From: Candidatus Omnitrophota bacterium
GTDB taxonomy: Bacteria > Omnitrophota > Gorgyraeia > Gygaellales > Profunditerraquicolaceae
Direction: 5' to 3'
Length of the DNA stretch: 64,000 nt
Assembly: GCA_050012075.1 (NCBI GenBank)
Contig: JBEKHW010000002.1
Span: 47,518-111,517, forward strand
Positions within the stretch are counted from its first letter, which is position 1; each line of letters starts with the position of its first letter. Position numbers and translations under genes: made by a program. The notes under the pieces were generated by a model. That model did not search any database. It was not told the DNA's origin and saw only the letters and a list, made by a program, of their open reading frames with translations. Positions 28,485-45,295 of this stretch are shown here, piece after piece.

Positions 28485-28587
28485 CTACTCACCCTCCCGT
28501 TACACTTTCCTTCCCATGAGATACAAATATTCCGCAAAAATCTCGTTTTGAGGCGGATATTTGCATTCTTTTCCAGCAATTAACTCT

Positions 28588-28615
28588 TTGCAATCAAAGG
28601 ATTTAATGATATAAT
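28588..28615 (+). promoter_or_regulatory. sigma70-like promoter upstream of rmlA
   Basis: TTGCAA, a 16-nt spacer, then TATAAT. Confidence 0.4.
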
Positions 28616-30386: not shown

Positions 30387-31348
30387 TAACCGGAGGCGCC
30401 GGATTTATCGGCAGTGAATTTGTCAGGCAGGCAGTAAAAGGCGGCCTTGAGGTTACGGTTATCGATAAGCTTACTTATGCCGGTGATTTAAGGCGGCTTA
30501 AGGGGATACCTTTAAGATTTCATAAAGCCGATATCTGCGATAAGAAAGCGATAGAGCTGGTTATTAAACGCCGGAATCCGGATACAATAGTAAATTTTGC
30601 CGCTGAATCTCACGTTGACAGGAGTATTTTAAAGCCGCAGGATTTTATCGCTACAAACGTAACCGGAACGCAGGTTTTGCTGGATGCCGCTAAGAAGCAT
30701 GCCGTAGGGCTTTTTTGCCAGATTTCTACCGATGAAATTTACGGGGATATTAAAAAGGGAGAGTTTACGGAAAAGTCGCCTTTAAACCCAAGTTCTCCTT
30801 ACGCAGTTTCTAAGGCCGCGGCAGACCTTCTGGTTAGTTCTTATATCCGTACTTACGCCACGCCGGCAATTATTGTAAGACCGTCTAACAATTATGGCCC
30901 ATGGCAATATCCTGAGAAGCTCATTCCTCTAGCCATATTGAAAATATTGCGTAAAGAAAAGGTTCCTATTTATGCGCAGGGAAAAAATGTGCGCGAGTGG
31001 CTTTATGTAGAGGATTGCGTAAGAGGTATCCTCCAGATACTCCGGAAAGGAAAATCCGGTTCAGCTTATAATCTCGGCAGCGGTCAAGAAATGCAAAACA
31101 TAGAGGTAGTAAGATTACTCCTTAAGGAAATGAACGTAAGCCAGTCTTTGATTGAGTTTGTAAAAGACAGGCCCGGACATGATATAAGATACCGGCTTAA
31201 TTCCGATAAACTCCGTGATGAGATAGGATGGCGGCCAAAGGTAGAGTTTAAAGACGGCATTAAATACACAGTAAAGTGGGGCGTTCTGCATAAGGATTGG
31301 CTGTTAAGTAAGTGGTCTGGTATCAGCTGGCTTTACAGGAAAAGATGA
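30359..31348 (+). CDS. rfbB: dTDP-glucose 4,6-dehydratase
   Basis: ILVTGGAGFIGSEFVR and YAVSKAAADLLV (YxxxK). Confidence 0.9.
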   Translation: MRKRIRKILVTGGAGFIGSEFVRQAVKGGLEVTVIDKLTYAGDLRRLKGIPLRFHKADICDKKAIELVIKRRNPDTIVNFAAESHVDRSILKPQDFIATNVTGTQVLLDAAKKHAVGLFCQISTDEIYGDIKKGEFTEKSPLNPSSPYAVSKAAADLLVSSYIRTYATPAIIVRPSNNYGPWQYPEKLIPLAILKILRKEKVPIYAQGKNVREWLYVEDCVRGILQILRKGKSGSAYNLGSGQEMQNIEVVRLLLKEMNVSQSLIEFVKDRPGHDIRYRLNSDKLRDEIGWRPKVEFKDGIKYTVKWGVLHKDWLLSKWSGISWLYRKR

Positions 31349-31620
31349 TTTACAAAATTATAGGCTTAGTCGCAGCTACGCTTACCATGTTTTCATTTGT
31401 GCCGCAGATTATAAAGGTGATAAAGACAAAATCCGCGCATGATGTCAGTATAATTACACTCATCCAGCTTTCTCTGGGTGTAACCCTGTGGATTATCTAC
31501 GGACTGTATCTTAGGGATTTTATAATAGTGTTTGCCAATAGCGTGACACTCATCACGTTATTGATAATTTTGACGCTTTATCATAGATACGGAAGGAGAA
31601 AAAGCGCATTATGTCGGTAG
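31345..31620 (+). CDS. SemiSWEET / PQ-loop sugar transporter half-unit
   Basis: About 90 aa with 3 TM helices and the PQ motif ([12 protein letters not shown]). Start taken at the ATGA overlap with the rfbB stop. Confidence 0.55.
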
Positions 31621-32666
31621 TCCTCATAACCGGTTCATGCGGCCTTATTGGTTCGCAAACTGCGGGTTTTTTTGCCGAGAAAGGGTTTGACATAGCCGGA
31701 ATAGATAACGATATGCGAAAGTACTTTTTCGGTAAAGATGGCAGTATCGTCGGTAATAAAAAACGGCTGCTAAAAAAATATAAGAACTATAAACATTTTG
31801 ATGCCGATATAAGAGATGACGGCAGGATAGATAAGATATTCAGGAAATTTTCAAAAGATATACTTTTGATAGTGCATACCGCAGCTCAACCTTCCCATGA
31901 CTGGGCTGCAAGAGAGCCGAAGACGGATTTTAGCGTAAATGCCTGCGCTACTTTAATAATGCTTGAGGCGTTCAGGAAGCATTGCCCCAAGGCAGCATTT
32001 ATATTTACCTCGACGAACAAGGTGTACGGTGACCTGCCGAACACTCTGCCTCTGGTAGAACTGGAGAAACGCTATGAATTGCCGCAGGGCCACAGGTATT
32101 ATAGAGGCATAGATGAGTCAATGAGTGTTGATAACTGTTTGCACAGTCTTTTCGGCGCATCAAAACTGGCTGCCGATATCCTGGCTCAGGAATACGGAAG
32201 GTATTTTGGCCTCTCTACCGCCATCTTCCGGGGCGGCTGCCTTACAGGTCCGGCGCATTCCGGTGTCGAGCTTCATGGATTTCTTTCATATCTTGTAAAA
32301 TGCTGCGTTAGCGGGAAAATTTATAAAATATACGGCTACAAGGGCAAGCAGGTCAGGGATAATATCCATTCATATGACCTGGTGAATGCCTTTTATCATT
32401 TCTTTAAGGCGCCAAGGACCGGGGAAGTATACAATATAGGTGGCGGCAGATTCGCCAATGTTTCTATATTAGAGGCAATTGATATATGCCAAAGGATCTC
32501 CGGAAAAAAGTTCAGCTATGAATACACGGATAAAAACAGGGTAGGCGACCATATCTGGTGGATAAGCGATGTCTCCAAATTCAAATCGCATTATCCCCAG
32601 TGGCAGTATAAGTACGGTATCGAAGATACTATGCGCCAAATATACGATGCCCAAAATGAAGCCTAA
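31611..32666 (+). CDS. NAD-dependent epimerase/dehydratase (CDP-paratose 2-epimerase-like)
   Basis: [13 protein letters not shown]ossmann fold and [11 protein letters not shown] (YxxxK). About 350 aa with an extended N-terminal insertion, as in CDP-tyvelose/paratose epimerases. Confidence 0.6.
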
Positions 32667-34482
32667 TTACATATTAGGAATATCGGCTTTTTACCATGAT
32701 AGCGCAGCCGCGTTGATTAAGGATGGAGAAATAATGGCTGCTGTCCAGGAAGAACGCTTTAGCCGCAGGAAACATGATCCAGGGTTTCCTGTTAATGCGG
32801 TAAACTGGTGCCTGAAAGAAAACGCCATTACCGCGCAGGACCTTGATTACGTAGTATTCTACGATAAACCCTTCATAAAATTAGAAAGAATATTGGAAAC
32901 CGCTATGCGTTTTGCCCCTTCAGGAATAACCCAATTCATGCAATCAGTGCCTGTATGGTTAAAGGAGAAAATATGGGTCAGGGATATCATCTCAAAGAGT
33001 TTAGGTTACAAAGGAGAGATTCTTTTCTGTGAGCATCATGAATCTCATGCGGCCTCGGCATTTTATCCTTCTCCTTTTGAAGAGGCGGCGTTTTTGACTA
33101 TAGACGGCGTGGGGGAATGGGATACAGCCAGTTTTGGAATAGGTAAAGGCAGGGAACTCAAAATCCAGCATTCTTTGAGATTCCCGCACTCTCTTGGCCT
33201 GCTTTATTCAGCGTTCACATATTATACCGGTTTCAAAGTGAATTCCGGGGAATATAAATTAATGGGGCTTGCGCCATTTGGTGAGCCGGTTTATAAGGAT
33301 TTGATACTGAACGAACTGTTGGATTTAAAAGAAGATGGTTCTTTCCGGCTGAATATGAAATATTTTGGATTCTGCAATGGCCTCAGGATGACAAATCTGC
33401 GGTTTGATAAACTTTTTGGCACAAAGCCTAGAAAGCCGGAAACAAAAATCAGGCAGATAGATATGGATTTGGCCAGCTCTATCCAGCAGGTAACCGAAGA
33501 GATAATGTTACGGATCGCCCGCCATGTATATAAAGTTACCGGAAAAAACAAACTTTGTTTAGCAGGCGGCGTAGCCTTAAACTGTGTCGCAAACGGCAGG
33601 ATTTTACGCGAAGGGCCGTTTGAGGATATCTGGATACAGCCTGCCAGCGGAGATGCGGGAGGGGCATTGGGCGCGGCCCTGGCAATATGGCACAGGTATC
33701 TTGGCAAGGAGAGAAAGATTGCTTCAGCCGGGGATTCATTAAAAGGTTCATTTCTTGGCCCGGCGTTCACCGATGACGAGATAGAGGAATTCCTGAAAAA
33801 AGAGAAGGTTCCTTATGAACATATTGAAAGAGAAAGGCTGGTGGATTCTACTGCGGAGTTGATTGAAAAGCAGCATGTAATCGGCTGGTTTCAGGGCCGC
33901 ATGGAATTCGGCCCGCGCGCATTGGGGGCCCGTAGTATCATAGGAGATGCCAGGAACCCGAAAATGCAATCCAGGATGAACCTTAAGATTAAATTCCGGG
34001 AATCCTTTCGGCCTTTTGCCCCGACTGTTTTAAGAGAGCATACCTCAGAGTGGTTTGCGTTAGATAGAGCAAGCCCCTATATGCTGCTTACTGCCCCGGT
34101 GAAAAAAGAAAAAAGGCTGGAAGAGCAAAAAGAGAAAGAGGGGCCCAGAGGCCTGGATAAGTTAAAGATTTTCCGTTCGCCTATACCAGCAGTTACCCAT
34201 GTAGATTATTCCGCAAGGATACAGACCATAGAGCGCCGGGATAACGGGATTTACTATGATCTGGTCAGCGCTTTTTATAGAAGGACCGGCTGCCCCGTAA
34301 TTATTAATACTTCTTTTAATATACGAGGGGAGCCGATTGTCTGTACCCCGGAAGAGGCGTTCCGTTGTTTTATGCGTACGGATATGGATTATTTGGTTAT
34401 AGGCTCATTCCTGCTTGATAAAAGTAAGCAGAGGCTTTTAAATGAGAAAATCAGGCCGCTGGAATACCAGGAGCTGGATTGA
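32647..34482 (+). CDS. carbamoyltransferase (NodU/CmcH family)
   Basis: [21 protein letters not shown]ae1/YgjD-like N-terminal domain plus a C-terminal carbamoyltransferase domain. Start chosen at an internal ATG overlapping the upstream stop. Confidence 0.8.
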
Positions 34483-34703
34483 TGGAGAAGGGCAAGCTCT
34501 TTAAATTCCTTCCCGATCTTATAGCCAGGATATTAAGCTTTATTGTGCTGACGCTGACTTTTTATCTGATAATTACGCCGCTAGGCATATTTCGCAGGTT
34601 GATACAGGGAGATTTCTTTGGAACGGGTATGGGCGCTTTACAGAGTTATTGGGTAGAAAAAAAAGAAGAATCTTCCATAGGTAGATACCATCGACAGTTT
34701 TAG
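34482..34703 (+). CDS. small 2-TM membrane protein downstream of carbamoyltransferase (possibly SxtJ-like)
   Basis: TGATG overlap with the carbamoyltransferase stop. Hydrophobic helices LIARILSFIVLTLTFYLIITPLGIF. The family assignment rests on recalled gene-neighbourhood patterns only. Confidence 0.35.
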   Translation: MEKGKLFKFLPDLIARILSFIVLTLTFYLIITPLGIFRRLIQGDFFGTGMGALQSYWVEKKEESSIGRYHRQF

Positions 34704-34715
34704 GCAGGAGGGTGA

Positions 34716-34874
34716 ATGGGCAAAATTTATCTGCTGAAGGAATTATGGGATTTTATGAAAATCAGAAAAAGATACTGGCTATTGCCGATTATTATTATTC
34801 TGACAATCTTTTCCATATTGATAATTTTTACCCAATCATCGGCAGTTGCGCCTTTTATATATACCCTATTCTAA
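34716..34874 (+). CDS. DUF5989-like small membrane protein (SxtK-like), absent from the ORF track
   Basis: 52 aa: MGKIYLLKELWDFMKIRKRYWLLPIIIILTIFSILIIFTQSSAVAPFIYTLF. GGAGGG RBS 5 nt upstream. The C-terminal ...SAVAPFIYTLF matches the recalled consensus of small proteins found downstream of carbamoyltransferases. Confidence 0.55.
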   Translation: MGKIYLLKELWDFMKIRKRYWLLPIIIILTIFSILIIFTQSSAVAPFIYTLF

Positions 34875-34875
34875 A

Positions 34876-36141
34876 ATGCCAAATAAATCTGAAATTATTT
34901 CTGGATTCTGTGACAGGATTGTTTATTGCGCGATAATCCTGCTTCCTTTTGTGGCGAGTTTTTCCTCTGCCGGGGTGGACGCCATGATCGGCATATCGGG
35001 ATTTTTCTTTTTGCTTAAAAAAATATTAAGGAAAGACCATTCTCCGGTAAATATCCCCATCTTAGGCGCTTTCATATGCTTAATAGTAATTTCCCTTGTC
35101 TCATTCTTTAATACCATAAATTTGAAATCAAGCATACATGGTATAGAGAAGCTGTTGAAGTATGGTATTTTATTTGTAACAGTGGCTGATTCGCTAAAAG
35201 ACAAAAAGCATCTCAAATGGATTTTGTTTGCTTTGATTTCAGGATTGGTTATGGCTTCCCTGGACGGTTTTTATTCGATGGTATTCGGAAAGGACCTATT
35301 CAGGCAGATGCCGCCTAATTATGTAATAGGGTTGATTCGTATCAGGGCCGCTTTTCCCGATGCCAATCTATTTGCAGGATACCTGGCTTTATTTTCTCCG
35401 GTATTGTTAGGAATTACACTTTATCATGTCAAGGGCCGCTTAAAAGGCATTATGCTTCTGGTTTCAGTCCTGGTTCTGGTCAACCTTATCTTTACCTTGT
35501 CGCGCAGTGCTATTTTCGGCGTATGGCTGGCCTTATTATTTATGGGGATACTGAAAAGGGATAAAGTAATTATTTTTTTGCTTATACTTTCGCTTTTAAT
35601 AACCCCTTTTATTATGCCGCGCCAGATTAAGGGATGGATAAACAGCTCGAATTCAATCTGGGAAGTTCTTTTAAATGGCGATAGTCAAAGCGCAGGGAGG
35701 TTGCCTCTTTTTAAGGTCGCGCTGGAAATGATTAAGTCCCATCCGTTTATCGGAGTAGGTGTCAATACCTTCAGCATTAACTTTAAAATCTATAAAGCCA
35801 TTGGTAAAATAGATTTTCCTTATCCAGGGGACTGGTATGCCCATAATATCTACCTGCACCTGCCTGCTGAAATTGGACTCGTTGGCCTTGCGATATTTTT
35901 ATATATGTTATTCCTGATTTTTAAGACATGGGTAAAGTTTAACCGAGAGACGCAAGACGCTTTCCTGAAAATTTCAGGCATGGGTATCATTGCCGGGATA
36001 ATCGCTTTTCTTGTTAATGGCTTAACCGAAACAAACCTTTATAATCCAAAAGTCGCCACCTTATTATTTTTTATGATCGGTTTATTCTTCGGTGTGAATA
36101 AAATCGCCAAGGGGGTAGTTTATGAAAAAAAACAAAACTAA
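34876..36141 (+). CDS. O-antigen ligase / O-antigen polymerase-like membrane protein (Wzy_C family)
   Basis: Polytopic protein with TLSRSAIFGVWLALL and a large periplasmic loop. Start chosen at the ATG 2 nt after the small ORF's stop. Confidence 0.55.
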   Translation: MPNKSEIISGFCDRIVYCAIILLPFVASFSSAGVDAMIGISGFFFLLKKILRKDHSPVNIPILGAFICLIVISLVSFFNTINLKSSIHGIEKLLKYGILFVTVADSLKDKKHLKWILFALISGLVMASLDGFYSMVFGKDLFRQMPPNYVIGLIRIRAAFPDANLFAGYLALFSPVLLGITLYHVKGRLKGIMLLVSVLVLVNLIFTLSRSAIFGVWLALLFMGILKRDKVIIFLLILSLLITPFIMPRQIKGWINSSNSIWEVLLNGDSQSAGRLPLFKVALEMIKSHPFIGVGVNTFSINFKIYKAIGKIDFPYPGDWYAHNIYLHLPAEIGLVGLAIFLYMLFLIFKTWVKFNRETQDAFLKISGMGIIAGIIAFLVNGLTETNLYNPKVATLLFFMIGLFFGVNKIAKGVVYEKKQN

Positions 36142-36907
36142 AGTTGTGATTCTTTGTGGAGGCAGGGGAACGCGTATTAGCGAAGAAACAGAGGTAATGC
36201 CTAAACCCATGATTCAGATAGGTGGCAAGCCCATCCTCTGGCATGTTATGAGGACTTATTCGCATTTCGGTTTTAACGATTTTATTATCTGTCTCGGTTA
36301 CAAGGGGTACGCGATTAAGGAATATTTCGCGAATTATTTCCTGCATTCTGCCGACGTTACGCTTGATTTAAGCACTAACAGCATGAAAGTCATCGGTTCA
36401 AAAGCCGAACCCTGGAGGGTGACGCTTATTGATACCGGACCCGATACACTGACTGGAGGAAGAATTAAAAGAGTAGAGGAATATATCGGTAAAAATACAT
36501 TTATGCTTACTTACGGTGACGGGGTGGGAAACATCAATATAAAAGAGTCGATGGACTTTCATAGGAAACACGGAAAATTAGCTACGATAACAGCCGTTCA
36601 GTTAGAAGGGAGATTCGGCGCCATTGAGATTAAAGGGCAAAATACGGTGGCTTCTTTCTGGGAGAAGCCCAAAGGTGATGGCGCCTGGATTAATGGCGGT
36701 TTCTTTGTCCTTGAGCCGGGTATCTTTGGTTACATTAAAGGCGATTGCACGTGGGAAAAAAAACCTTTGCAGAACTTGGGCAAAGACGGCCAACTCAAGG
36801 CGTTTAAACATAACGGATTCTGGAAATGCATGGATACATTACGGGATAAAATAGAATTGGAGCGGTTATGGGAGAGCGGGAAGGCGCCCTGGAAGCTAGA
36901 ACGGTAA
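36122..36907 (+). CDS. rfbF: glucose-1-phosphate cytidylyltransferase
   Basis: VVILCGGRGTRISEETEVMPKPMIQIGGKPILWHVM. Confidence 0.85.
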   Translation: MKKNKTKVVILCGGRGTRISEETEVMPKPMIQIGGKPILWHVMRTYSHFGFNDFIICLGYKGYAIKEYFANYFLHSADVTLDLSTNSMKVIGSKAEPWRVTLIDTGPDTLTGGRIKRVEEYIGKNTFMLTYGDGVGNINIKESMDFHRKHGKLATITAVQLEGRFGAIEIKGQNTVASFWEKPKGDGAWINGGFFVLEPGIFGYIKGDCTWEKKPLQNLGKDGQLKAFKHNGFWKCMDTLRDKIELERLWESGKAPWKLER

Positions 36908-38394
36908 ATCCTCTTTTTATTGCCGTCGTTCTGGGTATATCGGTTATTTTGGCTATTTTTATTTTACAGTATGGTAACATGCATGCTGATAGAAGATTAG
37001 CCGTCTCCGGCATAATAGTGAATGTTGCCTGGCAAATGCATTTGGGTTACAGGCCTTACCATGATTTTCTCACTAGTATTCCGCCGCTTTTTATAATGGG
37101 TTGTAAATATGCTTTTGATTTATGGGGGGTACGCTGGAATTCCTTGACTATTCTTACTCTCATATTTGCAGAAATTACATATCTCTCGCATGTGGCAATA
37201 CTCTATAAAATGAGGATTGGGAATTGGTGGAGCATTTTTCTGCCATTTACAGTACAATCCTTGACACTGCTTCTTTTTCCACGGTGGTGGTTTAACCAGA
37301 TTACTTCTGTTATAGGATGTCTTTTTATTTCCGCTTCACTATTATTATATAAGAAGCCTAAAGAAAATTTCAGTCAACTGGTTTTTTTGTTTATAGCCGC
37401 TTTTTTGTTGCTTACGAAACCGAATGTCATGATACCACTGGTGTTATTTACATTCCTGGTTTTTATAAGCATCCCGGGTTTCCGTCTTCTAATAGTCAAG
37501 CTGCTGGTTTCCGCGGCTCTTTTGGCCACACTTTTATTGCTATCGGCAAAAATTAATCCCTTTGAAGTTTTCTCAAGTTATATATCAGCTTCTGCTCCGG
37601 CCTCATTTAGATTACTTAAGCATCTTTTCTACTTTTTCCCTTTCGTAAATCATTCCTGGGAGCAGATTTTTATACTTTTTATCTTTTTTGTTCCTTGTCT
37701 TTTTGGCCTGGGGATCATTTTAGATTACGTTTTTAAGGCAGGTAAGAGTGCTATACCATATTTTGTATTGGCACTAGGAGGTGTAATAAGCGGTTTTGTC
37801 AGCATACTTACAAATCACGAGATCTTTCTTAATGGCATAGCAATAATTTTATTCAGTTTCGTTATTCCAATATTGCTCTTAAGGCCATATATGCCTGTGG
37901 GCCGGGATAGAATGCTAGTTTCTTATTTTTTGATGTTGAGCTTATTTCTCTTTACGGCAGATGGATTAATATCGATGAGGAGAAGATTAGAGTTAAAGCC
38001 TTCCTTAGTCCGGTTAGATTACCCTTTATTTTTTAAAGGCACGTATGCAACTCCCAGGTTAACCAGAATCCTGAAGCAGGTTGATGACGTGATTAAAAAG
38101 GAAGGATATGCCGGCCAATCAAATGCGAGTGTCTTCTTTGGATGGAATCTTGATTTCGCTTATGCGGTCTATGGAATACACCCTGCCATGAGGATGCCTC
38201 TATGGTGGGAGCCACAATTTAACACAAAGGAAATGATCCTGAGGTTTGAGAAGGAGCGTTTCAAAACAGCTGTTTTTTTTCGCGGAGAATACACTTATTT
38301 TCCTAAAGAATTAAAAGATTATTTGAATAAGGAATACGTGGTTTCTGATTATGGAGAGCTAACCGTGCATGAGTTGCGGCAGCAAAGTGATTAG
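36868..38394 (+). CDS. polytopic membrane protein of unknown function
   Basis: 508 aa with more than 10 TM helices. Start uncertain, as it overlaps the rfbF 3' end. Confidence 0.4.
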   Translation: MGEREGALEARTVNPLFIAVVLGISVILAIFILQYGNMHADRRLAVSGIIVNVAWQMHLGYRPYHDFLTSIPPLFIMGCKYAFDLWGVRWNSLTILTLIFAEITYLSHVAILYKMRIGNWWSIFLPFTVQSLTLLLFPRWWFNQITSVIGCLFISASLLLYKKPKENFSQLVFLFIAAFLLLTKPNVMIPLVLFTFLVFISIPGFRLLIVKLLVSAALLATLLLLSAKINPFEVFSSYISASAPASFRLLKHLFYFFPFVNHSWEQIFILFIFFVPCLFGLGIILDYVFKAGKSAIPYFVLALGGVISGFVSILTNHEIFLNGIAIILFSFVIPILLLRPYMPVGRDRMLVSYFLMLSLFLFTADGLISMRRRLELKPSLVRLDYPLFFKGTYATPRLTRILKQVDDVIKKEGYAGQSNASVFFGWNLDFAYAVYGIHPAMRMPLWWEPQFNTKEMILRFEKERFKTAVFFRGEYTYFPKELKDYLNKEYVVSDYGELTVHELRQQSD

Positions 38395-38408
38395 GGTGAG
38401 GTGAAGAT

Positions 38409-39389
38409 ATGGATAAGAATTTCTGGAAGGATAAAAAAATCCTGATAACCGGTTTTGAAGGATTCCTCGGGTCGAATCTGTCCAAGGCCTTACTTAAAAC
38501 AAAGGCAAAGGTGGTTGGCCTTGACATAAAAGTTTTGCGCAAGGAGACTTTATTTAATCAGGAAGATTACAGGAATATAACCGTATATAAAGGCAGCGTT
38601 ACCAATTACGGGCTTATTGAAAAAATCCTGCGTAAGCATTCTATAGACGTGGTTTTTCATCTGGCAGCAGAAGCTATTGTCGGCCGCAGCCACGGGGATC
38701 CCGTACGCGCTTTCCATGCCAATATCACTGGCACTTGGAGTGTTTTGGAGGCCTGCCGGAAGCAGGGGAGAATAGAGGCGGTTATTGTTGCTTCAAGCGA
38801 TAAGGCATATGGCGAACACGATAAGCTGCCTTATAAAGAAGGCTATCCTTTAGCCGCAAACCATCCTTACGATGTTTCAAAAAGCTGCGCTGATTTAATT
38901 GCCAATACCTATGCGCATACGTATGGCCTGCCGGTAGTTATTACGCGCTGTGGTAACATTTACGGCCCTGGCGATTTCAATTTTAGCCGCCTTATTCCTG
39001 ATATGATGAGGTGCCTTTTTAGGGACAAGACACTGCTCATCCGTAGCGACGGAAAATTTGTGCGTGATTATGTATATGTAGATGATATAGTAGAGGGATA
39101 TCTAAAGGCCGCAGAGCTTTTAAAAGCGCGCAATCTTGCGGGAGAGGCCTTTAACTTAAGCTATGAGAGGCCGATTACAGTGCTTGAGCTCTTGGCTAAG
39201 CTCGATACTTTGAAGGCTGTAACCAGGAAACCTAAGTATAAAATATTAAATCTGGCAAAATACGAGATAAGAAAACAATCCCTATTTTCCGGGAAGGCAA
39301 GGCGCATCCTGAAGTGGAAACCAAAATATAACCTAGAAGATGGCCTGAAGAAGACTCTGGCGTGGTATTTTAATTATTTTTCCAAATGA
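38409..39389 (+). CDS. rfbG: CDP-glucose 4,6-dehydratase
   Basis: MDKNFWKDKKILITGFEGFLGSNLS matches the RfbG N-terminus (NFW...TG..GF.GS). YDVSKSCADL (YxxxK). Confidence 0.75.
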   Translation: MDKNFWKDKKILITGFEGFLGSNLSKALLKTKAKVVGLDIKVLRKETLFNQEDYRNITVYKGSVTNYGLIEKILRKHSIDVVFHLAAEAIVGRSHGDPVRAFHANITGTWSVLEACRKQGRIEAVIVASSDKAYGEHDKLPYKEGYPLAANHPYDVSKSCADLIANTYAHTYGLPVVITRCGNIYGPGDFNFSRLIPDMMRCLFRDKTLLIRSDGKFVRDYVYVDDIVEGYLKAAELLKARNLAGEAFNLSYERPITVLELLAKLDTLKAVTRKPKYKILNLAKYEIRKQSLFSGKARRILKWKPKYNLEDGLKKTLAWYFNYFSK

Positions 39390-40129
39390 TGAGAGTGCAT
39401 TTTCTGGGAACGATGGGCTGGTATGATACGGAATTGGGCAATACCCTTTGTGTGCTCGTAGAAACTCCACGCGAATACGTTATTTTTGACGCTGGTAACG
39501 GCTTCGCAAAAGCCGACTCGTATTTAAGGAAAGATAAGCCGGTTTATTTATTCTTAAGCCATTTTCATCTTGATCATATAATAGGGCTGCACGCGCTCAA
39601 TAAATTTGACCTTCCGCAAGGCATCGATGTATTCGGGCCATCCGGGATAAAGAAGATGTTCAATCTTATTATTAATTCCCCGTATTCTAAGCCCCTAGCC
39701 AAATTAAAAACCAGGGTAAGGATAAAAGAGCTTTCTGGCAGGTTAAAACTTCCTATTGATATACAATTTAAGGAGTTAATCCATACCACTGTATGTTTCG
39801 GTTATCGGTTATCGTATAAAGGCAAAGTAGTGGCGTTTTGCACTGATACCGGCTTATGCAATAACCTCGCTTCATTGGCAAGGAATGCGGATTTGCTGAT
39901 CCTGGAATCGTCGTTGCGGCCGGGGGAACCTGACAGGGGCTGGCCGCACCTTAACCCGCAGCAGGCCGCCACAGTGGCAAGGAAGGGGTTTGCCGGGAAA
40001 TTGGCATTGGTTCATTTTGATGCCGCAGATTATTCGCGGGAAAGCGATATACAATCAGCGGGGACTGCAGCGCGGAAGATTTTTAAGAACACCATAACAG
40101 CAAGAGATGGCAAGTGTATAGAAATATGA
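39386..40129 (+). CDS. MBL-fold metallo-hydrolase
   Basis: FLSHFHLDHIIG (HxHxDH) motif. Confidence 0.6.
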   Translation: MMRVHFLGTMGWYDTELGNTLCVLVETPREYVIFDAGNGFAKADSYLRKDKPVYLFLSHFHLDHIIGLHALNKFDLPQGIDVFGPSGIKKMFNLIINSPYSKPLAKLKTRVRIKELSGRLKLPIDIQFKELIHTTVCFGYRLSYKGKVVAFCTDTGLCNNLASLARNADLLILESSLRPGEPDRGWPHLNPQQAATVARKGFAGKLALVHFDAADYSRESDIQSAGTAARKIFKNTITARDGKCIEI

Positions 40130-41337
40130 TTGCTTGTAAGCAGGAGATAAATATAAAAAATAACCGGTCATGTCCTGTTTGTGCTTCTGTAAAATGCGAA
40201 TCTTTAGGTAACCAGAAATTCGCAATTCCAAAAGGCCACCCTCTGCCTCAAGAATATAATATCGTAAGTTGCCGGAGGTGCGGTTTCGTATATGCCGATA
40301 CTCCTGCAATCCAGGAGAATTACAACAAATATTACCGCGAATTCTCAAAATATGAAGATTTGAAAATATCCTCTGGAGGAGGCATTAATAAGTGGGATTT
40401 AATCAGATTGAGAGATGCCACTGGCTTTATTTCAAGGTTTTTAAAAAACAAAAGTAGATCTATTCTGGATATCGGATGCGCTAACGGAGGCTTGTTGTCG
40501 GAATTAAAGAAAAGAGGATATTCTAATTTATACGGCATAGACCCTTCCCCAAAGTGCGTTTCTAATGTTAATAAGTTGGGGATCAAGGCGTCCAGGGGGG
40601 ATATCTTTTCAGTCACGAAAAATGTAAAAGAAAGAAAGTTCGGCTGCATAATTCTTTCTCATGTCTTAGAGCATATCTGCGATCTGAATTTGGCCATCAA
40701 TAATACAGCTTCTATTCTAGATAAAGATGGCATGCTGTATATTGAAGTCCCTGATGCCGCGAATTATTCTGAATGTCATGTTGTCCCGTATTATTATTTT
40801 GACTGTGAACATATCAATCATTTCGATATTGCCGCCCTGGATAACCTTCTATTATCTAAGGGGTTTGAACGTCTTGGTTTTCGGGAAAAAAGATTAAGGT
40901 TCATCAATAAGTTTTACCCGGTTATTTCAGCGGTGTATTTAAAGAATCCAGTTTCTTCTGTTCGCGCGGTATCTCCTGATTTCAGGACTAAGAACATCGT
41001 TAAGAGATATATCGCTGAATCTATGAAGAAAAATACTTACCCGCAAATATCAAAACTCATTAAGGGCAGGCAGGAAATCGTAGTCTGGGGGGCAGGGTCT
41101 TTTACCCTCAGGTTAATGGAAAATAATAAATTGGCGCAATGCAATATCAAATGTTTTGTTGATAATGATGCGAAGAAATATGGGAGTTCCATAAATAACA
41201 TTCCCATTTGCCCTCCACTGGAGATTCTGAACAATTTCAGGGGGCCGATACTTATTTGTTCAGCGCTATATTCTAAAGAGATCGTCATTCAGATAAAGCG
41301 GATGGGGCTAGATAATGAGATTGTCGTTCTTAATTAG
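40114..41337 (+). CDS. NDP-hexose C-methyltransferase-like (TylCIII-type architecture)
   Basis: N-terminal Zn-ribbon (CPVCAS...CRRCGF), central class I SAM methyltransferase motif LDIGCANGGLL, and a C-terminal Rossmann-like extension (VVWGAGSF). Confidence 0.55.
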   Translation: MYRNMIACKQEINIKNNRSCPVCASVKCESLGNQKFAIPKGHPLPQEYNIVSCRRCGFVYADTPAIQENYNKYYREFSKYEDLKISSGGGINKWDLIRLRDATGFISRFLKNKSRSILDIGCANGGLLSELKKRGYSNLYGIDPSPKCVSNVNKLGIKASRGDIFSVTKNVKERKFGCIILSHVLEHICDLNLAINNTASILDKDGMLYIEVPDAANYSECHVVPYYYFDCEHINHFDIAALDNLLLSKGFERLGFREKRLRFINKFYPVISAVYLKNPVSSVRAVSPDFRTKNIVKRYIAESMKKNTYPQISKLIKGRQEIVVWGAGSFTLRLMENNKLAQCNIKCFVDNDAKKYGSSINNIPICPPLEILNNFRGPILICSALYSKEIVIQIKRMGLDNEIVVLN

Positions 41338-41391
41338 AAATGAAGTTATTGGTAAAACCGGATAACTTATTTACGAAAAGGAATCTCGCAG

Positions 41392-42270
41392 ATGGATATA
41401 TTGATTACTGGCGGTAGTGGGTTTATCGGAAGAAACCTCGTAGAGTATTTAAGCTTAAAGCATAAAGTCGCCGCACCTTCTCATGCGGAGCTGGAGCTTT
41501 TGGATGAAGATGCGGTTAAAGGATATTTCAAAAGTCGTAATTTCGACACGGTAATCCATGCCGCAATCCGTCCAGGCCACCGTAATGCGAAAGACCCATC
41601 CAACGAGTTGTATCAGAATGCAAGAATGTTTTTTAATCTTATAAGGAACTCGAGCTCATTTAAAAAAATCATTGTCCTGAGCTCTGGTTTGGTCTATGAC
41701 CAGCGGTTTTATATTCCGAAAATGAAGGAGGAATATCTCGGTACGCATATGCCTGCAGATGAAGGTGGGTTTTCTAAATATATAATTGCAAAGTATATTG
41801 GAAAAATGGATAATGCCGTGGAATTGAGGGTATTCGGGATATTCGGTAAATACGAAGATTATGCGATAAGATTTATTTCAAACGCTATCTGTAAGACCAT
41901 TTTTGATTTGCCTATCACCATAAAGCAAAATCGTAAATTTGATTATGTTTATATCGAAGATTTCTTAAGGATTACAGAACATTTCTTGCAAAACAGTGGC
42001 AAGTATAGATCCTACAATATTACGCCAGACAGAGCAGTAGACCTCTATGAGCTTGCAAAAACAATTCGCAAGATATCCGGTAAGGATTTCCCTATTAAAG
42101 TTGCCCGGGAGGGGATGGGATTAGAGTATAGCGGGGATAATGCGAGATTACGGCAGGAGATGCCAGTTTTTAAGTTTATGCCGGTAGAAGCTGCAATAGA
42201 AAAACTCTATGCGTGGTATTCAGAAAATAAATCAAGCATTAACAAAGAGTTCTTACTCTTTGATAAATAG
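41392..42270 (+). CDS. NAD-dependent sugar epimerase/reductase (GDP-fucose synthase / CDP-abequose synthase-like)
   Basis: ILITGGSGFIGRNL and ELELLDEDAVKGYFKSRNFDTVIHAA. YIIAKY (YxxxK). Confidence 0.55.
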   Translation: MDILITGGSGFIGRNLVEYLSLKHKVAAPSHAELELLDEDAVKGYFKSRNFDTVIHAAIRPGHRNAKDPSNELYQNARMFFNLIRNSSSFKKIIVLSSGLVYDQRFYIPKMKEEYLGTHMPADEGGFSKYIIAKYIGKMDNAVELRVFGIFGKYEDYAIRFISNAICKTIFDLPITIKQNRKFDYVYIEDFLRITEHFLQNSGKYRSYNITPDRAVDLYELAKTIRKISGKDFPIKVAREGMGLEYSGDNARLRQEMPVFKFMPVEAAIEKLYAWYSENKSSINKEFLLFDK

Positions 42271-42311
42271 AAAGATTCACTAAATTAGTCACAAAAAATG
42301 GGGAGGTTGGC

Positions 42312-43403
42312 ATGAATAAGGATATTTTTGAAGATTTGTTTGTCCTTGAATTAGCTAACAATCACTACGGAAAACTGGAGAGGGGGTTAAAGATTATCAC
42401 TGAATTCTCCAGGATAATCCGGTTCAATAATGTCAGGGCTTCGATTAAGCTTCAAATCAGGGATGTGGATAATTTCATACATAAGGCTTTTCGTAACAGT
42501 ATTGATATACGTTATATTAAAAAAACGCTGGACACCAAAATGCCCAAAGAGAACTTTGAAACTATGGTGCAGTTTATCAGGAAGAGCGGGTGCATACCAT
42601 CGGCAACGCCTTTTGATGAAAAATCCGTTGATTTTTGTTCTGAGCTGGGTATCCAGATTTTAAAAATTGCCAGCTCCGACTTAAATGACTGGGTGTTAAT
42701 AGAAAAAATCGCGAAGACCAAGAAACCGGTTATCGTATCCACGGGGGGCTCGTCCTTGAAAGACCTTGATGACTTAGTTGTTTTCTTTGAAAATAGGAAT
42801 ATCCCGCTTGCCATAAACCACTGCATAGCATTATATCCTTCTGAAGATTGCGAACTCGAACTCAATCAGCTAGATTTCTTGAAGAATAGATACCCAAACC
42901 ATACGATAGGCCTGTCTACTCACGAATATCACGATTGGGTTTCTTCAATAATGATTGCTTATGCTAAAGGCGCGAGGACCTTTGAAAGGCATATAGATAT
43001 AGATGACGGGCAATATGAAATTTCTCCTTATTGTTCTTTGCCGCATCAGGTAGATGCCTGGTTTAAGGCGTTCAAAAAGGCAAAAGAAATGTGTGGCGCC
43101 TCCGGTACATCTAAGAGAATGCCATCTGAGAAGGAAACTGAGTATCTCAATGCCCTTGTCAGGGGTGTATATGCCAAAAAGAATCTGCCTGAAGGATATG
43201 TATTTCATCATGAAGATATAGAGCAGGATATTTACTTGGCGATACCGTTACAGAAAGGGCAGATTTCCTGTAGAGAATTGATGAGTGGAGAAGTTCTATT
43301 GAGGGGATGCAAGAAAGATGAACCCATAACTATTGATATGATAGACAGCCCTTACGCTAACAATGAGGATTTAAAGAAGGTAATATACAGCAGGGGATTA
43401 TAA
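42312..43403 (+). CDS. N-acetylneuraminate synthase family protein (NeuB/PseI/SpsE-like)
   Basis: VLELANNHYGKLE TIM-barrel N-terminus plus a C-terminal SAF-like domain. Family-level call only. Confidence 0.45.
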   Translation: MNKDIFEDLFVLELANNHYGKLERGLKIITEFSRIIRFNNVRASIKLQIRDVDNFIHKAFRNSIDIRYIKKTLDTKMPKENFETMVQFIRKSGCIPSATPFDEKSVDFCSELGIQILKIASSDLNDWVLIEKIAKTKKPVIVSTGGSSLKDLDDLVVFFENRNIPLAINHCIALYPSEDCELELNQLDFLKNRYPNHTIGLSTHEYHDWVSSIMIAYAKGARTFERHIDIDDGQYEISPYCSLPHQVDAWFKAFKKAKEMCGASGTSKRMPSEKETEYLNALVRGVYAKKNLPEGYVFHHEDIEQDIYLAIPLQKGQISCRELMSGEVLLRGCKKDEPITIDMIDSPYANNEDLKKVIYSRGL

Positions 43404-43413
43404 GAGGCAGGGT

Positions 43414-45222
43414 ATGATAAAAGTTACAGATTATATAGCAAAACGGCTTGCCGATAGTGGAATCAGGCATATTTTTATGTTGACCGGCGGCGGGGCTATG
43501 CATCTTAATAATTCATTGGGGAAGGATAAATATCTCAAATGTGTTTTTAATCATCACGAACAGGCCTGCGCTATTGCTGCAGAGGGTTATGCCAGGATAT
43601 CCGCTAAGCTAGGAGTAGTTAATGTTACTTCCGGGCCAGGGGGATTAAATACTTTGACCGGAGTTATGGGGCAGTGGACCGATTCAGTACCCGTGTTATA
43701 TATATCCGGTCAGGTCAAACTCGAAACAAGTATCTCTTCTTGTCCTGATATCGGATTACGGCAGCTTGGCGACCAGGAAGTGGATATCGTCAACATAGTA
43801 AAGCCGATAACAAAATTCGCGATTATGGTTAAAAATCCTAACGAGATAAAAAGAATACTTGATAAAGCTATATACATAGCTACGCATGGCCGGCCCGGAC
43901 CGGTATGGATTGATTTGCCTCTTGATGTTCAGGGAGCCGTGGTTGATGAGAGTAAAATGCTAGGGTATGATAAAAAAGAGGCCGCCATATTTAATGATGC
44001 CGATCTCCTGACTAAAGTGCCGCAAGTAATTAAGTTGATTAAGGCATCGCATCGTCCGGTCATTTTAGCCGGATATGGTATCCGCATTGCGAATGCGCAG
44101 GAATTATTCCTGGAACTGGTAAATAAATTGAAGGTGCCGGTTTTATCTACCTTTAACGGCCAGGACCTTATAGCAAGCAATCATCCTTGTTTCATAGGAA
44201 GAATAGGTACCCAGGGAGACAGGGCGGGTAATTTTGCCCTTCAAAATTCAGATCTGTTATTATCAATTGGCTCACGAAATAATATCAGGCAGGTTAGTTA
44301 TAATTGGAAAACTTTTGCCCGGGAAGCTAAAAAAGTAGTAGTTGATATAGACCCTGCAGAGTTACAGAAAAGCACTTTAATCCCTGATATCGCAGTACAT
44401 TCTGATGCCAGGTATTTCCTGGAAAATATGTCCAAAGTTTTAGAAAAAACCGGTCTGCCAGGATGGAATAAGTGGTTACGCTGGTGCATTGAGAGAAAAA
44501 ATAAATATCCCGTGGTTATTCCTAAGTACAAAAAATCCAAGAAAATCAATCCGTATTATTTTATCAATCTTTTAAGCGAATGCATAAAAGAAAGAACTGT
44601 TGTCGTTACCGGAAATGGCACGGCAAGTGTATGCTATTTCCAGGCCGCCATGGTTAAGAAGGGGCAGAGGATTATAATGAATTCCGGTTGCGCGGCTATG
44701 GGGTATGATTTACCGGCTGCGATAGGCGCTTGTTTTGCCAGTAGCAAAAAAGATATTATTTGTATTACAGGAGATGGCAGCATCCAGCTGAATATCCAGG
44801 AGCTACAGACTATAATCCATCATAAACTGCCGATAAAAATATTTGTTTTAAATAATGACGGGTATATTTCCATAAGGCAGACTCAAAAGAGTTTTTTTGG
44901 TTTACCGTATGTAGGCTCCGGCAGAACGTCTGGATTGAGTCTTCCCGATATGGGCAAGATCGCAAAGGCTTATGGCATAAAATCATACACTATCGATAAA
45001 AATCACGGCATAAGGATAAAGATAAAACGCATACTTGATTGCAGGGGTCCGGTTATCTGTGAAGTAAAACTCGACGATAACTATAAATTCATGCCGAAAT
45101 TATCTTCAGAAAGAAAGCCGGATGGAAGAATTGTTTCTAAGCCTATTGAGGATATGTCCCCATTTTTAGAGCGAAAAGAATTTAAGGGCAATATGCTCGT
45201 ACCGCTGTATCGGGAGAAATAA
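43414..45222 (+). CDS. thiamine diphosphate-dependent enzyme (acetolactate synthase large subunit-like; YerE-like candidate)
   Basis: The three ThDP-enzyme domains, with the ThDP-binding GDGS...NNDGY motif near the C-terminus. Confidence 0.75.
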   Translation: MIKVTDYIAKRLADSGIRHIFMLTGGGAMHLNNSLGKDKYLKCVFNHHEQACAIAAEGYARISAKLGVVNVTSGPGGLNTLTGVMGQWTDSVPVLYISGQVKLETSISSCPDIGLRQLGDQEVDIVNIVKPITKFAIMVKNPNEIKRILDKAIYIATHGRPGPVWIDLPLDVQGAVVDESKMLGYDKKEAAIFNDADLLTKVPQVIKLIKASHRPVILAGYGIRIANAQELFLELVNKLKVPVLSTFNGQDLIASNHPCFIGRIGTQGDRAGNFALQNSDLLLSIGSRNNIRQVSYNWKTFAREAKKVVVDIDPAELQKSTLIPDIAVHSDARYFLENMSKVLEKTGLPGWNKWLRWCIERKNKYPVVIPKYKKSKKINPYYFINLLSECIKERTVVVTGNGTASVCYFQAAMVKKGQRIIMNSGCAAMGYDLPAAIGACFASSKKDIICITGDGSIQLNIQELQTIIHHKLPIKIFVLNNDGYISIRQTQKSFFGLPYVGSGRTSGLSLPDMGKIAKAYGIKSYTIDKNHGIRIKIKRILDCRGPVICEVKLDDNYKFMPKLSSERKPDGRIVSKPIEDMSPFLERKEFKGNMLVPLYREK

Positions 45223-45295
45223 CCAGAACTATATTCGGATTACAGTATTATAAGGATATGGCCAAGTAAATACGTATATTTACGGGGTTTAGAAA

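What the first reader, a model, noticed from the sequence alone, without database searches (positions are those of the whole stretch)
32647..34874. Carbamoyltransferase followed by two tiny membrane-protein genes, one missed by the ORF track (52-aa DUF5989/SxtK-like)
Downstream of the NodU/CmcH-type carbamoyltransferase lie a 73-aa 2-TM ORF (34482-34703) and a 52-aa ORF (34716-34874). The 52-aa ORF is in a different frame from the listed ORF 34712-34936, which is spurious. It has a strong GGAGGG RBS, and its C-terminus, SAVAPFIYTLF, matches my recollection of the small proteins that accompany carbamoyltransferases, including the saxitoxin sxtI, sxtJ and sxtK triad. This indicates a conserved three-gene O-carbamoylation module operating on a glycan here.
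Basis: partly seen in the sequence, partly recalled or inferred. Interest (0 to 1): 0.5.

Follow-up and report, generated by a model that had tools for sequence, protein, structure and literature searches.

The report
Carbamoyltransferase with two small membrane partners
A sugar-modifying enzyme gene in an uncultured Omnitrophota bacterium is followed by two tiny, real membrane-protein genes, the widespread but functionally uncharacterised SxtI/SxtJ/SxtK trio first named in the saxitoxin gene cluster, here inside a surface-sugar gene cluster, so the finding is correct but mostly ordinary.

Summary
32647/32656-34482 encodes a two-domain O-carbamoyltransferase (CT). 34482-34703 is a conserved 73-aa gene whose ATG overlaps the CT stop. 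34716-34874 is a 52-aa DUF5989 protein (Pfam E 1.8e-23), the family UniRef labels SxtK. The alternative-frame ORF 34712-34936 is spurious.

Corrections:
- The 73-aa protein has one hydrophobic helix, not two.
- It gets no Pfam hit, yet it is clearly the C-terminal core of SxtJ-family proteins (hhalign 99.8%, E 7.5e-28). It is a naturally shortened "mini-SxtJ", also kept in three close relatives.
- NCBI already annotates the 52-aa gene in this Omnitrophota MAG.

The trio is strongly conserved. In 53 species-representative genomes with enough flank around DUF5989, 50 have the CT, 51 have SxtJ and 49 have both. Starting from the CT instead, 35 of 43 metagenome loci have both small genes.

One metagenome contig fuses the CT in frame to a mini-SxtJ, which suggests the two act together. 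About half of the loci also carry an SxtL-like GDSL protein; the window does not.

The glycan substrate is inferred from the surrounding surface-glycan gene cluster. The role of the small proteins is still untested. This is a new member of a known kind, of modest interest.

The parts
32647..34482 (+). O-carbamoyltransferase of the NodU/CmcH/TobZ/SxtI type (611 aa from ATG 32647; ATG 32656 is an equally plausible start). It overlaps the upstream epimerase gene, which ends at 32666.
   Evidence: Pfam PF02543 1.2e-101 plus PF16861 1.6e-72. PDB relatives: 7xb6 2.8e-93, NovN, GdmN, TobZ. Identity to CTs lying next to DUF5989 in other phyla is 39-71%, median 59%. The HHESH and GPRALGARS motifs are visible in the translation.
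34482..34703 (+). Mini-SxtJ: a 73-aa membrane protein with one hydrophobic helix plus a conserved tail (…FYLIITPLG…R…D…SYW…Y.RQF). It corresponds to the C-terminal half of the 125-145-aa SxtJ-family proteins. Its ATG overlaps the CT stop codon.
   Evidence: homology; an HMM built from full-length SxtJ only hits at E 2.5e-23, positions 64-133 of 133. (stops upstream, so no hidden N-terminal half). (conserved in 3 relatives; dN/dS 0.16-0.23 against the window). (one helix).
34706..34712 (+). Shine-Dalgarno-like AGGAGGG, 3-4 nt upstream of the ATG of the 52-aa gene.
   Evidence: Read directly from the sequence. Conserved in relatives L084 and L086 (output).
34716..34874 (+). DUF5989 / SxtK-family 52-aa membrane protein: N-terminal amphipathic helix, one transmembrane helix, and a near-invariant C-terminus SSAVAPFIYTLF.
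   Evidence: Pfam PF19451 1.8e-23. 1202 homologues found, 100% identical to an NCBI "DUF5989 family protein". Alignment A3. dN/dS 0.10. AlphaFold helices at 3-16, 20-40 and 44-51. UniRef name SxtK for cyanobacterial members.
34876..36141 (+). Context gene: Wzy_C / O-antigen-ligase-like polytopic membrane protein. Its in-frame ATG lies 1 nt after the DUF5989 stop, so it is in the same tightly packed operon.
   Evidence: Pfam PF04932 2.1e-19 and NCBIfam TIGR03097 9.6e-21. Junction read from the sequence.
31611..32666 (+). Context gene: NAD-dependent sugar epimerase/dehydratase directly upstream, overlapping the CT start.
   Evidence: Pfam Epimerase 2.8e-32.

Best explanation
The three genes form an SxtI/SxtJ/SxtK-type carbamoylation module inside a roughly 29-kb surface-glycan operon of a Candidatus Omnitrophota bacterium.

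The 611-aa enzyme is a cytoplasmic, two-domain O-carbamoyltransferase. By homology to TobZ, GdmN and NovN it should make carbamoyl-adenylate from carbamoyl phosphate and ATP, then transfer the carbamoyl group to a substrate hydroxyl.

The two small proteins are integral membrane subunits translated from the same message. The mini-SxtJ start overlaps the enzyme's stop, and the SxtK gene follows after 12 nt with its own strong ribosome-binding site.

I infer that mini-SxtJ acts as the enzyme's membrane anchor or adaptor, through its single hydrophobic helix and its conserved, otherwise disordered tail. I infer that SxtK/DUF5989 is a second small subunit of the same membrane complex. This would place the enzyme at the cytoplasmic face of the membrane. 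There it would carbamoylate a sugar of a lipid-linked glycan unit before the adjacent Wzy-like protein handles that unit.

Shown here: gene reality, family membership, selection, and conserved linkage. Inferred: physical complex, topology, glycan substrate.
For: Enzyme identity.

Small-gene reality and purifying selection.

Homology of the 73-aa protein to the SxtJ core.

Linkage:
- Of 53 GTDB species loci with at least 5 kb on both sides of DUF5989, 50 have the CT, 51 have SxtJ and 49 have both, mostly on the same strand. Over all 80 loci the gene orders are CT-J-K in 33 and J-K-CT in 30.
- Starting from the CT, 35 of 43 metagenome loci have both small genes and 6 more have J only.

Fusions:
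- L116 encodes the CT fused in frame to a diverged one-helix mini-SxtJ.
- P0148 fuses a mini-SxtJ to DUF5989.

Mini-SxtJ forms recur independently: L109 and L118, and 25 further hits of 66-99 aa among the 152 sequences held that match the SxtJ profile. This shows the last helix plus tail is the indispensable core.

The AlphaFold tail is coil at pLDDT 60-67 despite strong conservation, as expected for a partner-binding motif.

Glycan context: the RmlA-like, dehydratase, epimerase, Wzy-like, GT2, GT9, GT87, DegT, NeuB and cytidylyltransferase genes are all on the same strand. A promoter-like site precedes the first sugar gene at 28587-28615, and no intergenic terminator lies within the trio.

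The literature treats SxtI, SxtJ and SxtK as acting together.
Against: No experiment anywhere shows that SxtJ or SxtK bind or assist the enzyme. The reviews call them uncharacterised.

Structurally characterised relatives (TobZ, GdmN, NovN) were solved as stand-alone enzymes, so small partners are not needed for the chemistry itself.

Some CT loci lack K, and 2 of 43 lack both small genes. Some DUF5989 genes occur without the CT, next to an SxtL-like GDSL protein (L019, L035, L038, L048, L083). The small proteins are therefore not exclusively CT accessories.

In SAR11 loci the neighbours are not glycan genes, so the family-wide substrate need not be an O-antigen-type glycan.

The L116 and P0148 fusions are single instances, and P0148 could be a read-through or a sequencing error.

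Topology rests on charge distribution only.
Confidence: 0.6

Rival explanations
1. Trans-membrane relay. SxtJ and SxtK, together with an SxtL-like membrane-anchored GDSL/SGNH protein in many genomes, pass the carbamoyl group or a carbamoylated carrier across the membrane, so the glycan is modified on the outer face. This would be analogous to the two-part O-acetylation systems, which pair a membrane acyl-translocator with a periplasmic SGNH transferase.
For: An SxtL-like GDSL protein is present in 26 of 53 well-flanked DUF5989 loci and 28 of 80 CT-seeded loci. Pfam Lipase_GDSL 3.9e-6 for the Trichodesmium copy, with weak ALGX hits for L002. DUF5989 is sometimes paired with this protein without any CT (L019, L035, L038, L048, L083). 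sxtL follows sxtK in saxitoxin clusters. The most conserved part of DUF5989 is its C-terminus beyond the transmembrane helix.
Against: The window has no SxtL-like gene anywhere in its 64 kb. Mini-SxtJ plus SxtK offer only two hydrophobic helices, with no conserved charged residue inside them. That is a poor basis for a translocator unless they oligomerise. No carbamoyl carrier is known.
Confidence: 0.15
2. The enzyme carbamoylates a soluble substrate, such as a nucleotide-sugar or another metabolite. The two small proteins only stabilise, regulate or localise it, without defining the substrate.
For: Characterised family members act on soluble small molecules (TobZ, NovN, GdmN), and SxtI is assigned to a soluble saxitoxin precursor. 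SAR11 loci carrying the trio lack glycan-assembly neighbours.
Against: Here the trio sits between sugar-nucleotide genes and a Wzy-like membrane protein with 1-20-nt junctions. Two membrane subunits are hard to explain for a purely soluble reaction. The CT-mini-SxtJ fusion places the enzyme on the membrane.
Confidence: 0.15
3. The 73-aa ORF is a decaying remnant of a full-length sxtJ gene, and only the CT and DUF5989 are functional here.
For: It lacks the two N-terminal helices present in 67 of 70 genome copies. It gets no Pfam hit. One relative-to-relative comparison gave dN/dS 0.88 on very few changes.
Against: The same 73-aa form, start overlap and ribosome-binding site are kept in three diverged relatives (dS about 0.35) with dN/dS 0.16-0.23 against the window. 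Every near-invariant family residue is retained (T32, P33, R39, D44, Y56, W57, Q72). Independent one-helix forms exist elsewhere, including one fused to the enzyme.
Confidence: 0.05

Closest known systems
SxtI-SxtJ-SxtK of cyanobacterial saxitoxin gene clusters (sxtI 1839 bp, sxtJ 405 bp, sxtK 165 bp; PMC2679770)
   Same: The gene order is the same: CT, then a small membrane gene, then a roughly 52-54-aa gene. The enzyme size is the same (611 vs 612 aa). The 52-aa protein belongs to DUF5989, which UniRef labels SxtK. The 73-aa protein is homologous to the SxtJ family. In both systems the small proteins are functionally untested.
   Different: No other sxt gene is nearby; the context is glycan biosynthesis, not alkaloid synthesis. 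SxtJ is cut down here to its last helix plus tail, 73 aa against about 134 aa. There is no SxtL-like GDSL gene. The authentic SxtJ and SxtK sequences (ABI75100, ABI75101) were not available for direct comparison.
The widespread non-toxin CT-SxtJ-DUF5989(-SxtL-like) gene neighbourhood in many bacterial phyla (for example Omnitrophota L001/L002, Planctomycetota L006, SAR11 L015, Trichodesmium L083)
   Same: The same three families lie on one strand, usually abutting. CT identity is 39-71%.
   Different: Most copies carry a full-length three-segment SxtJ. About half add a GDSL/SGNH protein. About as many loci use the order J-K-CT as use CT-J-K (30 vs 33). The window lineage uses a mini-SxtJ.
Stand-alone O-carbamoyltransferases TobZ, GdmN, NovN and NodU
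   Same: The same two-domain enzyme fold family, and by inference the same carbamoyl-adenylate chemistry.
   Different: These are much more distant (E 1e-74 to 1e-93, against 1e-220 to 1e-300 for the J/K-linked CTs). NCBIfam NodU scores 136.8 bits against a cut-off of 1000, so the window enzyme is not a NodU equivalog. From memory, and not tested here, their clusters lack SxtJ/SxtK-like genes.
7-O-carbamoylation of heptose in the Pseudomonas aeruginosa LPS core
   Same: This is an established example of a carbamoylated envelope glycan (PMC7168646). The window cluster also carries two GT9 heptosyltransferase-like genes.
   Different: No sequence comparison with the Pseudomonas enzyme was made, and the acceptor sugar here is unknown.

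Membership tests
NodU/CmcH/TobZ-type O-carbamoyltransferase | Both Pfam domains (Carbam_trans_N PF02543 and Carbam_trans_C PF16861) above their gathering scores | tested here: met
   341.1 bits (cut-off 24) and 243 bits (cut-off 27), both near full profile length.
NodU/CmcH/TobZ-type O-carbamoyltransferase | Full-length similarity to structurally solved carbamoyltransferases, and presence of the conserved His-rich and GPRALGxRS-type motifs | tested here: met
   7xb6 2.8e-93 over residues 15-592, plus NovN, GdmN and TobZ. EHHESH and GPRALGARS are visible in the translation. The motif is cited as the putative SxtI catalytic site in bioRxiv 10.64898/2026.06.11.731795.
NodU/CmcH/TobZ-type O-carbamoyltransferase | Carbamoyl-phosphate- and ATP-dependent O-carbamoylation activity | not testable with these tools
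   Requires an enzyme assay.
NodU (NCBIfam NF041651 equivalog) | Score above the equivalog cut-off | tested here: not met
   136.8 bits against a cut-off of 1000.
DUF5989 (PF19451) / SxtK | Pfam score above the gathering threshold over the whole profile | tested here: met
   82.7 bits against 27, E 1.8e-23, profile positions 3-49 of 49.
DUF5989 (PF19451) / SxtK | Peptide of about 50-54 aa with one transmembrane helix and the conserved C-terminus …SSA.APFIYTLF | tested here: met
   52 aa. One main hydrophobic stretch at residues 18-49, running on to the hydrophobic C-terminus. AlphaFold helices at 3-16, 20-40 and 44-51. Nine of the twelve C-terminal residues are strictly invariant in 41 sequences and two more are at 90% or above.
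DUF5989 (PF19451) / SxtK | Encoded next to an SxtJ-family gene and a carbamoyltransferase | tested here: met
   This is true in the window. Across 53 well-flanked genome loci, 49 have both.
DUF5989 (PF19451) / SxtK | Direct similarity to authentic SxtK of a saxitoxin producer (ABI75101) | not tested
   That sequence could not be retrieved. The only link is that UniRef names DUF5989 proteins of Planktothrix, Limnoraphis, Rippkaea and Crocosphaera as SxtK, together with the matching gene size of 165 bp.
SxtJ (PF19588) | Pfam score above the gathering threshold (24.4 bits) | tested here: not met
   No hit at E<=1. The 99-position model ends at …TPxGxxxRL and mostly covers the helices missing here. 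Other one-helix forms score 18-26 bits on positions 60-99.
SxtJ (PF19588) | Homology to family members by profile methods | tested here: met
   399 representative hits, with the query aligned to their C-terminal halves. 49 of 60 of these hit Pfam SxtJ. hhalign 99.8%, E 7.5e-28. An HMM built from full-length members only gives E 2.5e-23.
SxtJ (PF19588) | Architecture of about 125-145 aa with three hydrophobic segments | tested here: not met
   73 aa with one segment. Stops lie upstream in frame. 67 of 70 genome copies are full length.
SxtJ (PF19588) | Conserved core FYLxxTPxG…R…D…SYW…Y.RQF at the C-terminus | tested here: met
   All near-invariant columns are retained: T32, P33, R39, D44, Y56, W57 and Q72.
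Saxitoxin biosynthetic gene cluster | Presence of core sxt genes (SxtA-type polyketide-synthase-like enzyme, amidinotransferase SxtG, and others) around sxtIJK | tested here: not met
   Pfam scans of neighbours across 23.5-59.6 kb show only sugar-nucleotide, glycosyltransferase, Wzy-like and housekeeping genes.

The most novel reading that the evidence does not exclude
The trio, with an SxtL-like GDSL protein in about half of the carriers, may be a very widespread envelope-carbamoylation machine whose common substrate is unknown. It is seen in at least 546 stretches of species-representative genomes across more than 15 phyla, including streamlined SAR11. On this reading the saxitoxin pathway merely borrowed it. 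The natural truncations (as in this window) and the CT-mini-SxtJ fusion define the last SxtJ helix plus its tail as the enzyme's built-in membrane anchor. DUF5989 would then be an unusually conserved (about 60% identity between phyla) 52-residue subunit that links the complex to something on the other side of the membrane.
Probability: 0.3. Interest if true: 0.55.

Novelty: new member of a known kind. Interest (0 to 1): 0.3.

Why it matters
SxtJ and SxtK have been listed as "unknown, probably act with SxtI" since the saxitoxin cluster was described, and reviews up to 2025 still say so. This window adds no new kind of system. It does give a clean natural experiment: an SxtJ reduced to one helix plus the conserved tail, kept under selection in a glycan operon.

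Together with the CT-mini-SxtJ fusion found elsewhere, this narrows down which part of SxtJ matters and makes a membrane-anchor hypothesis directly testable. It also shows that the 52-aa gene, which falls below common ORF length cut-offs, is real, and that the longer overlapping ORF is not.

Tried and rejected
- Pfam and NCBIfam scans of the 73-aa peptide gave nothing. The word-indexed protein search found only three near-identical copies. Homology appeared only in the exhaustive profile search.
- I looked for a hidden N-terminal half of SxtJ upstream in the same frame and found only stop codons.
- I searched all 64 kb for an SxtL-like GDSL gene with an HMM built from 21 neighbours and found none.
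- A full-text search for "DUF5989" found no paper. The original saxitoxin cluster paper (tried as PMC2446512, an id recalled from memory) is not held, so the statement that sxtJ/K homologues often flank carbamoyltransferase genes rests on my memory and on my own counts.
- I considered the saxitoxin-like secondary-metabolite reading and rejected it on gene context.
- I considered the pseudogene reading of the 73-aa ORF and rejected it on conservation.
- I checked whether the two 696-aa ORFs of the window are paralogues. They are not.
- Fold searches were not run, because the two models are simple helices.
Full report
WHAT IS THERE

On the + strand the window carries three tightly packed genes.

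(i) A 611-aa ORF runs from ATG 32647 (or 608 aa from ATG 32656) to 34482. It has both carbamoyltransferase domains: Pfam Carbam_trans_N 1.2e-101 and Carbam_trans_C 1.6e-72. It shows full-length similarity to the solved O-carbamoyltransferases 7xb6 (2.8e-93), NovN, GdmN and TobZ. The longest ORF begins at 32569, but homologues start 1-5 residues before the ILGIS motif.

(ii) A 73-aa ORF lies at 34482-34703. Its ATG overlaps the enzyme's TGA (TGATG), and AGGAG lies 8 nt upstream.

(iii) A 52-aa ORF lies at 34716-34874 and is preceded by AGGAGGG.

One nucleotide after its stop, an in-frame ATG (34876) opens a Wzy_C/O-antigen-ligase-like membrane protein.

The exact 73-aa and 52-aa proteins exist in NCBI for a Candidatus Omnitrophota MAG. 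The first is "hypothetical protein" and the second is already "DUF5989 family protein".

THE 52-AA GENE

- It matches Pfam DUF5989 at 1.8e-23 (82.7 bits, cut-off 27) over the whole profile.
- It has more than 1200 homologues at 65-100% identity. The C-terminus SSAVAPFIYTLF is nearly invariant, with 9 of its 12 residues strictly invariant.
- Against a relative with dS about 0.5, dN/dS is 0.10.
- The overlapping 74-aa ORF 34712-34936 has no family hit. In that relative it loses its start codon and gains a stop at codon 4. It shows 2 synonymous against 19 non-synonymous changes, whereas the DUF5989 frame shows 12 against 6. It is spurious.
- AlphaFold gives an N-terminal amphipathic helix (3-16), a transmembrane helix (20-40) and a short C-terminal helix (44-51).
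- UniRef names DUF5989 proteins of several cyanobacteria "SxtK", and sxtK is 165 bp. I could not retrieve authentic SxtK for a direct comparison.

THE 73-AA GENE

It gets no Pfam or NCBIfam hit, and the word-indexed search found only three near-identical 73-aa copies. The exhaustive profile search found 399 representatives. Most of the 150 listed are 125-145 aa, with the query aligned to their C-terminal half.

Evidence that it is an SxtJ-family core:
- 49 of 60 sampled homologues hit Pfam SxtJ.
- hhalign of the 73-aa alignment against 46 full-length members gives 99.8%, E 7.5e-28, on columns 75-144 of 144.
- An HMM built without the window sequence hits it at 2.5e-23 on positions 64-133 of 133.

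The Pfam model has 99 positions and ends at …TPxGxxxRL. It therefore covers mostly what this protein lacks and omits the conserved tail SYW…Y.RQF. That explains the missing hit.

There is no hidden N-terminal half, because the upstream frame is full of stops.

The protein has one hydrophobic segment. AlphaFold predicts one helix at residues 4-42 (pLDDT 88-97) and a coil tail (pLDDT 60-67).

Three diverged relatives keep the same length, the same TGATG junction and the core residues. dN/dS against the window is 0.16-0.23; one relative-to-relative pair gave 0.88 on very few changes. It is a selected mini-SxtJ, not a wreck.

HOW CONSERVED IS THE TRIO

The phyla include Omnitrophota, Acidobacteriota, Planctomycetota, Nitrospirota, Gemmatimonadota, Actinomycetota, Bacteroidota, Desulfobacterota, Cyanobacteriota (Trichodesmium, Crocosphaera) and Pseudomonadota including SAR11.

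| Sample | Loci counted | CT | SxtJ | Both | SxtL-like GDSL |
|---|---|---|---|---|---|
| Seeded from DUF5989, at least 5 kb on both sides | 53 | 50 | 51 | 49 | 26 |

Over all 80 loci the gene orders are CT-J-K in 33, J-K-CT in 30, J-CT-K in 3 and K-J-CT in 2.

In the reverse direction I seeded from the enzyme, using metagenome relatives at 56-66% identity. Of 43 loci with flank on both sides, 35 have both small genes, 6 have J only and 2 have neither.

The J/K-linked enzymes are 39-71% (median 59%) identical to the window's enzyme. That is far closer than the natural-product enzymes in the PDB.

Full-length SxtJ is the rule: 67 of 70 genome copies and 65 of 69 metagenome copies. One-helix forms nevertheless recur:
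- L109, with the order CT-miniJ-K-GT2, and L118.
- 25 further hits of 66-99 aa among the 152 sequences held that match the SxtJ profile.

TWO FUSIONS

In L116 (an 897-kb metagenome contig) the enzyme ORF continues in frame into a diverged one-helix mini-SxtJ ending …TYW…YEKQF. No DUF5989 gene lies within 4 kb.

P0148 fuses a mini-SxtJ to DUF5989. This one may be a read-through.

These are single cases. They point the same way as the gene linkage: the three products act together, and the last SxtJ helix plus its tail is the essential part.

CONTEXT

From a promoter-like site at 28587-28615 to about 57.8 kb, the + strand encodes the following:
- an RmlA-like nucleotidyltransferase
- an RmlD-like protein
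- a 4,6-dehydratase
- a PQ-loop/SemiSWEET-like protein
- an epimerase
- the trio
- a Wzy-like protein
- a second nucleotidyltransferase
- epimerases
- a metallo-beta-lactamase-fold protein
- methyltransferases
- a NeuB-like protein
- a thiamine-diphosphate enzyme
- two DegT aminotransferases
- three GT2, two GT9 and one GT87 glycosyltransferases
- an MGDG-synthase-like protein

No saxitoxin core gene is present. A glycan acceptor is therefore the sensible inference here, but it is only an inference. In SAR11 the same trio sits among unrelated genes.

MECHANISM

Established knowledge of TobZ-type enzymes gives the chemistry: carbamoyl phosphate plus ATP yields carbamoyl-adenylate, which is then used for O-carbamoylation in the cytoplasm.

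For the small proteins I commit to a membrane-anchor/adaptor model. Mini-SxtJ would tether the enzyme, by non-covalent binding of its conserved tail (in L116 the two are a single polypeptide). DUF5989 would be a second small subunit. The enzyme would then work at the inner membrane face on a lipid-linked glycan unit, next to the Wzy-like protein. I put this at about 0.6 overall.

The main rival is a trans-membrane relay with an SGNH partner (0.15). It is motivated by the frequent SxtL-like GDSL neighbour and by DUF5989-GDSL pairs that lack the enzyme (L019, L035, L038, L048, Trichodesmium L083). It is weak here because the window has no such gene, and the two peptides offer only two helices.

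The remaining rivals are a soluble-substrate reading (0.15) and a pseudogene reading (0.05).

COMPARISON AND NOVELTY

This is the SxtI/SxtJ/SxtK arrangement described for saxitoxin clusters. There the two small ORFs are "unknown" and are "hypothesised to work in conjunction" with SxtI.

- The enzyme is a member of the NodU/CmcH/TobZ family but is not a NodU equivalog.
- The 52-aa protein is a full member of DUF5989.
- The 73-aa protein is a truncated member of the SxtJ family. It fails Pfam's threshold and the three-helix architecture but keeps every conserved core residue.

The case is therefore a new member of a known kind, with a minor architectural variant. Interest is modest (0.3). The value lies in confirming a sub-threshold gene, removing a spurious one, and providing natural truncation and fusion evidence that makes the long-open question of what SxtJ and SxtK do more testable.

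Noticed in passing
L116:3983-5974 (metagenome contig Ga0074198_1000004): The carbamoyltransferase ORF continues in frame into a diverged one-helix mini-SxtJ (…AAAWLSFALFFFTGFTAIGFLARR…TYWIPVPRVAFDKSRYEKQF*). No DUF5989 gene lies within 4 kb. This is a natural enzyme-anchor fusion.
   Followed up: partly
P0148 (150-aa protein from the representative search): A single polypeptide combining a mini-SxtJ (Pfam SxtJ 1.1e-07) and DUF5989 (5.5e-26). The SxtJ tail deviates just before the junction, so it may be a frameshift read-through.
   Followed up: partly
L083:7578-15046 (Trichodesmium erythraeum IMS101, NC_008312): SxtJ (137 aa) and DUF5989 (54 aa) are followed by four tandem paralogous GDSL-lipase-like genes of about 400 aa. 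No carbamoyltransferase lies within 8 kb.
   Followed up: partly
L004-L166 (genome and metagenome loci): An SxtL-like membrane-anchored GDSL/SGNH protein accompanies the trio in about half of the well-flanked DUF5989-seeded loci (26 of 53) and about a third of the CT-seeded loci (28 of 80). It sometimes pairs with DUF5989 alone. It is absent from the whole window.
   Followed up: partly
L087, L093, L100, L117, L124: These carbamoyltransferase-SxtJ pairs have no DUF5989 gene within 4 kb, so the 52-aa partner is not obligatory.
   Followed up: partly
window 31312-31620 (+): A 102-aa PQ-loop / MtN3 (SemiSWEET-like) membrane protein is embedded between the sugar dehydratase and epimerase genes of the glycan operon. 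Its start overlaps the end of the upstream gene.
   Followed up: no
window 36122-46606 (+): A run of genes suggests synthesis of an unusual, possibly branched or aminated sugar: a second nucleotidyltransferase, epimerases, a metallo-beta-lactamase-fold protein, a 407-aa methyltransferase, a NeuB-like protein, a thiamine-diphosphate enzyme and a DegT aminotransferase.
   Followed up: no
window 36868-38394, 47318-49408 and 9388-10929 (+): Three large ORFs (508, 696 and 513 aa) have no Pfam match. Two of them lie inside the glycan cluster.
   Followed up: no
window 3681-5771 (+): A 696-aa protein combines GT4/GT1 glycosyltransferase domains with a C-terminal radical-SAM domain. It is flanked by two further radical-SAM genes at 23-1417 and 1600-2694. 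It is unrelated to the other 696-aa ORF at 47318.
   Followed up: partly
window 12430-16755 (+): A type IV pilus assembly block, running from a PilM-like protein to a secretin, lies upstream of the glycan region.
   Followed up: no
L030 and L031: Two DUF5989 copies occur in one locus: about 2.8 kb apart in L030, and as overlapping ORFs in different frames in L031.
   Followed up: no
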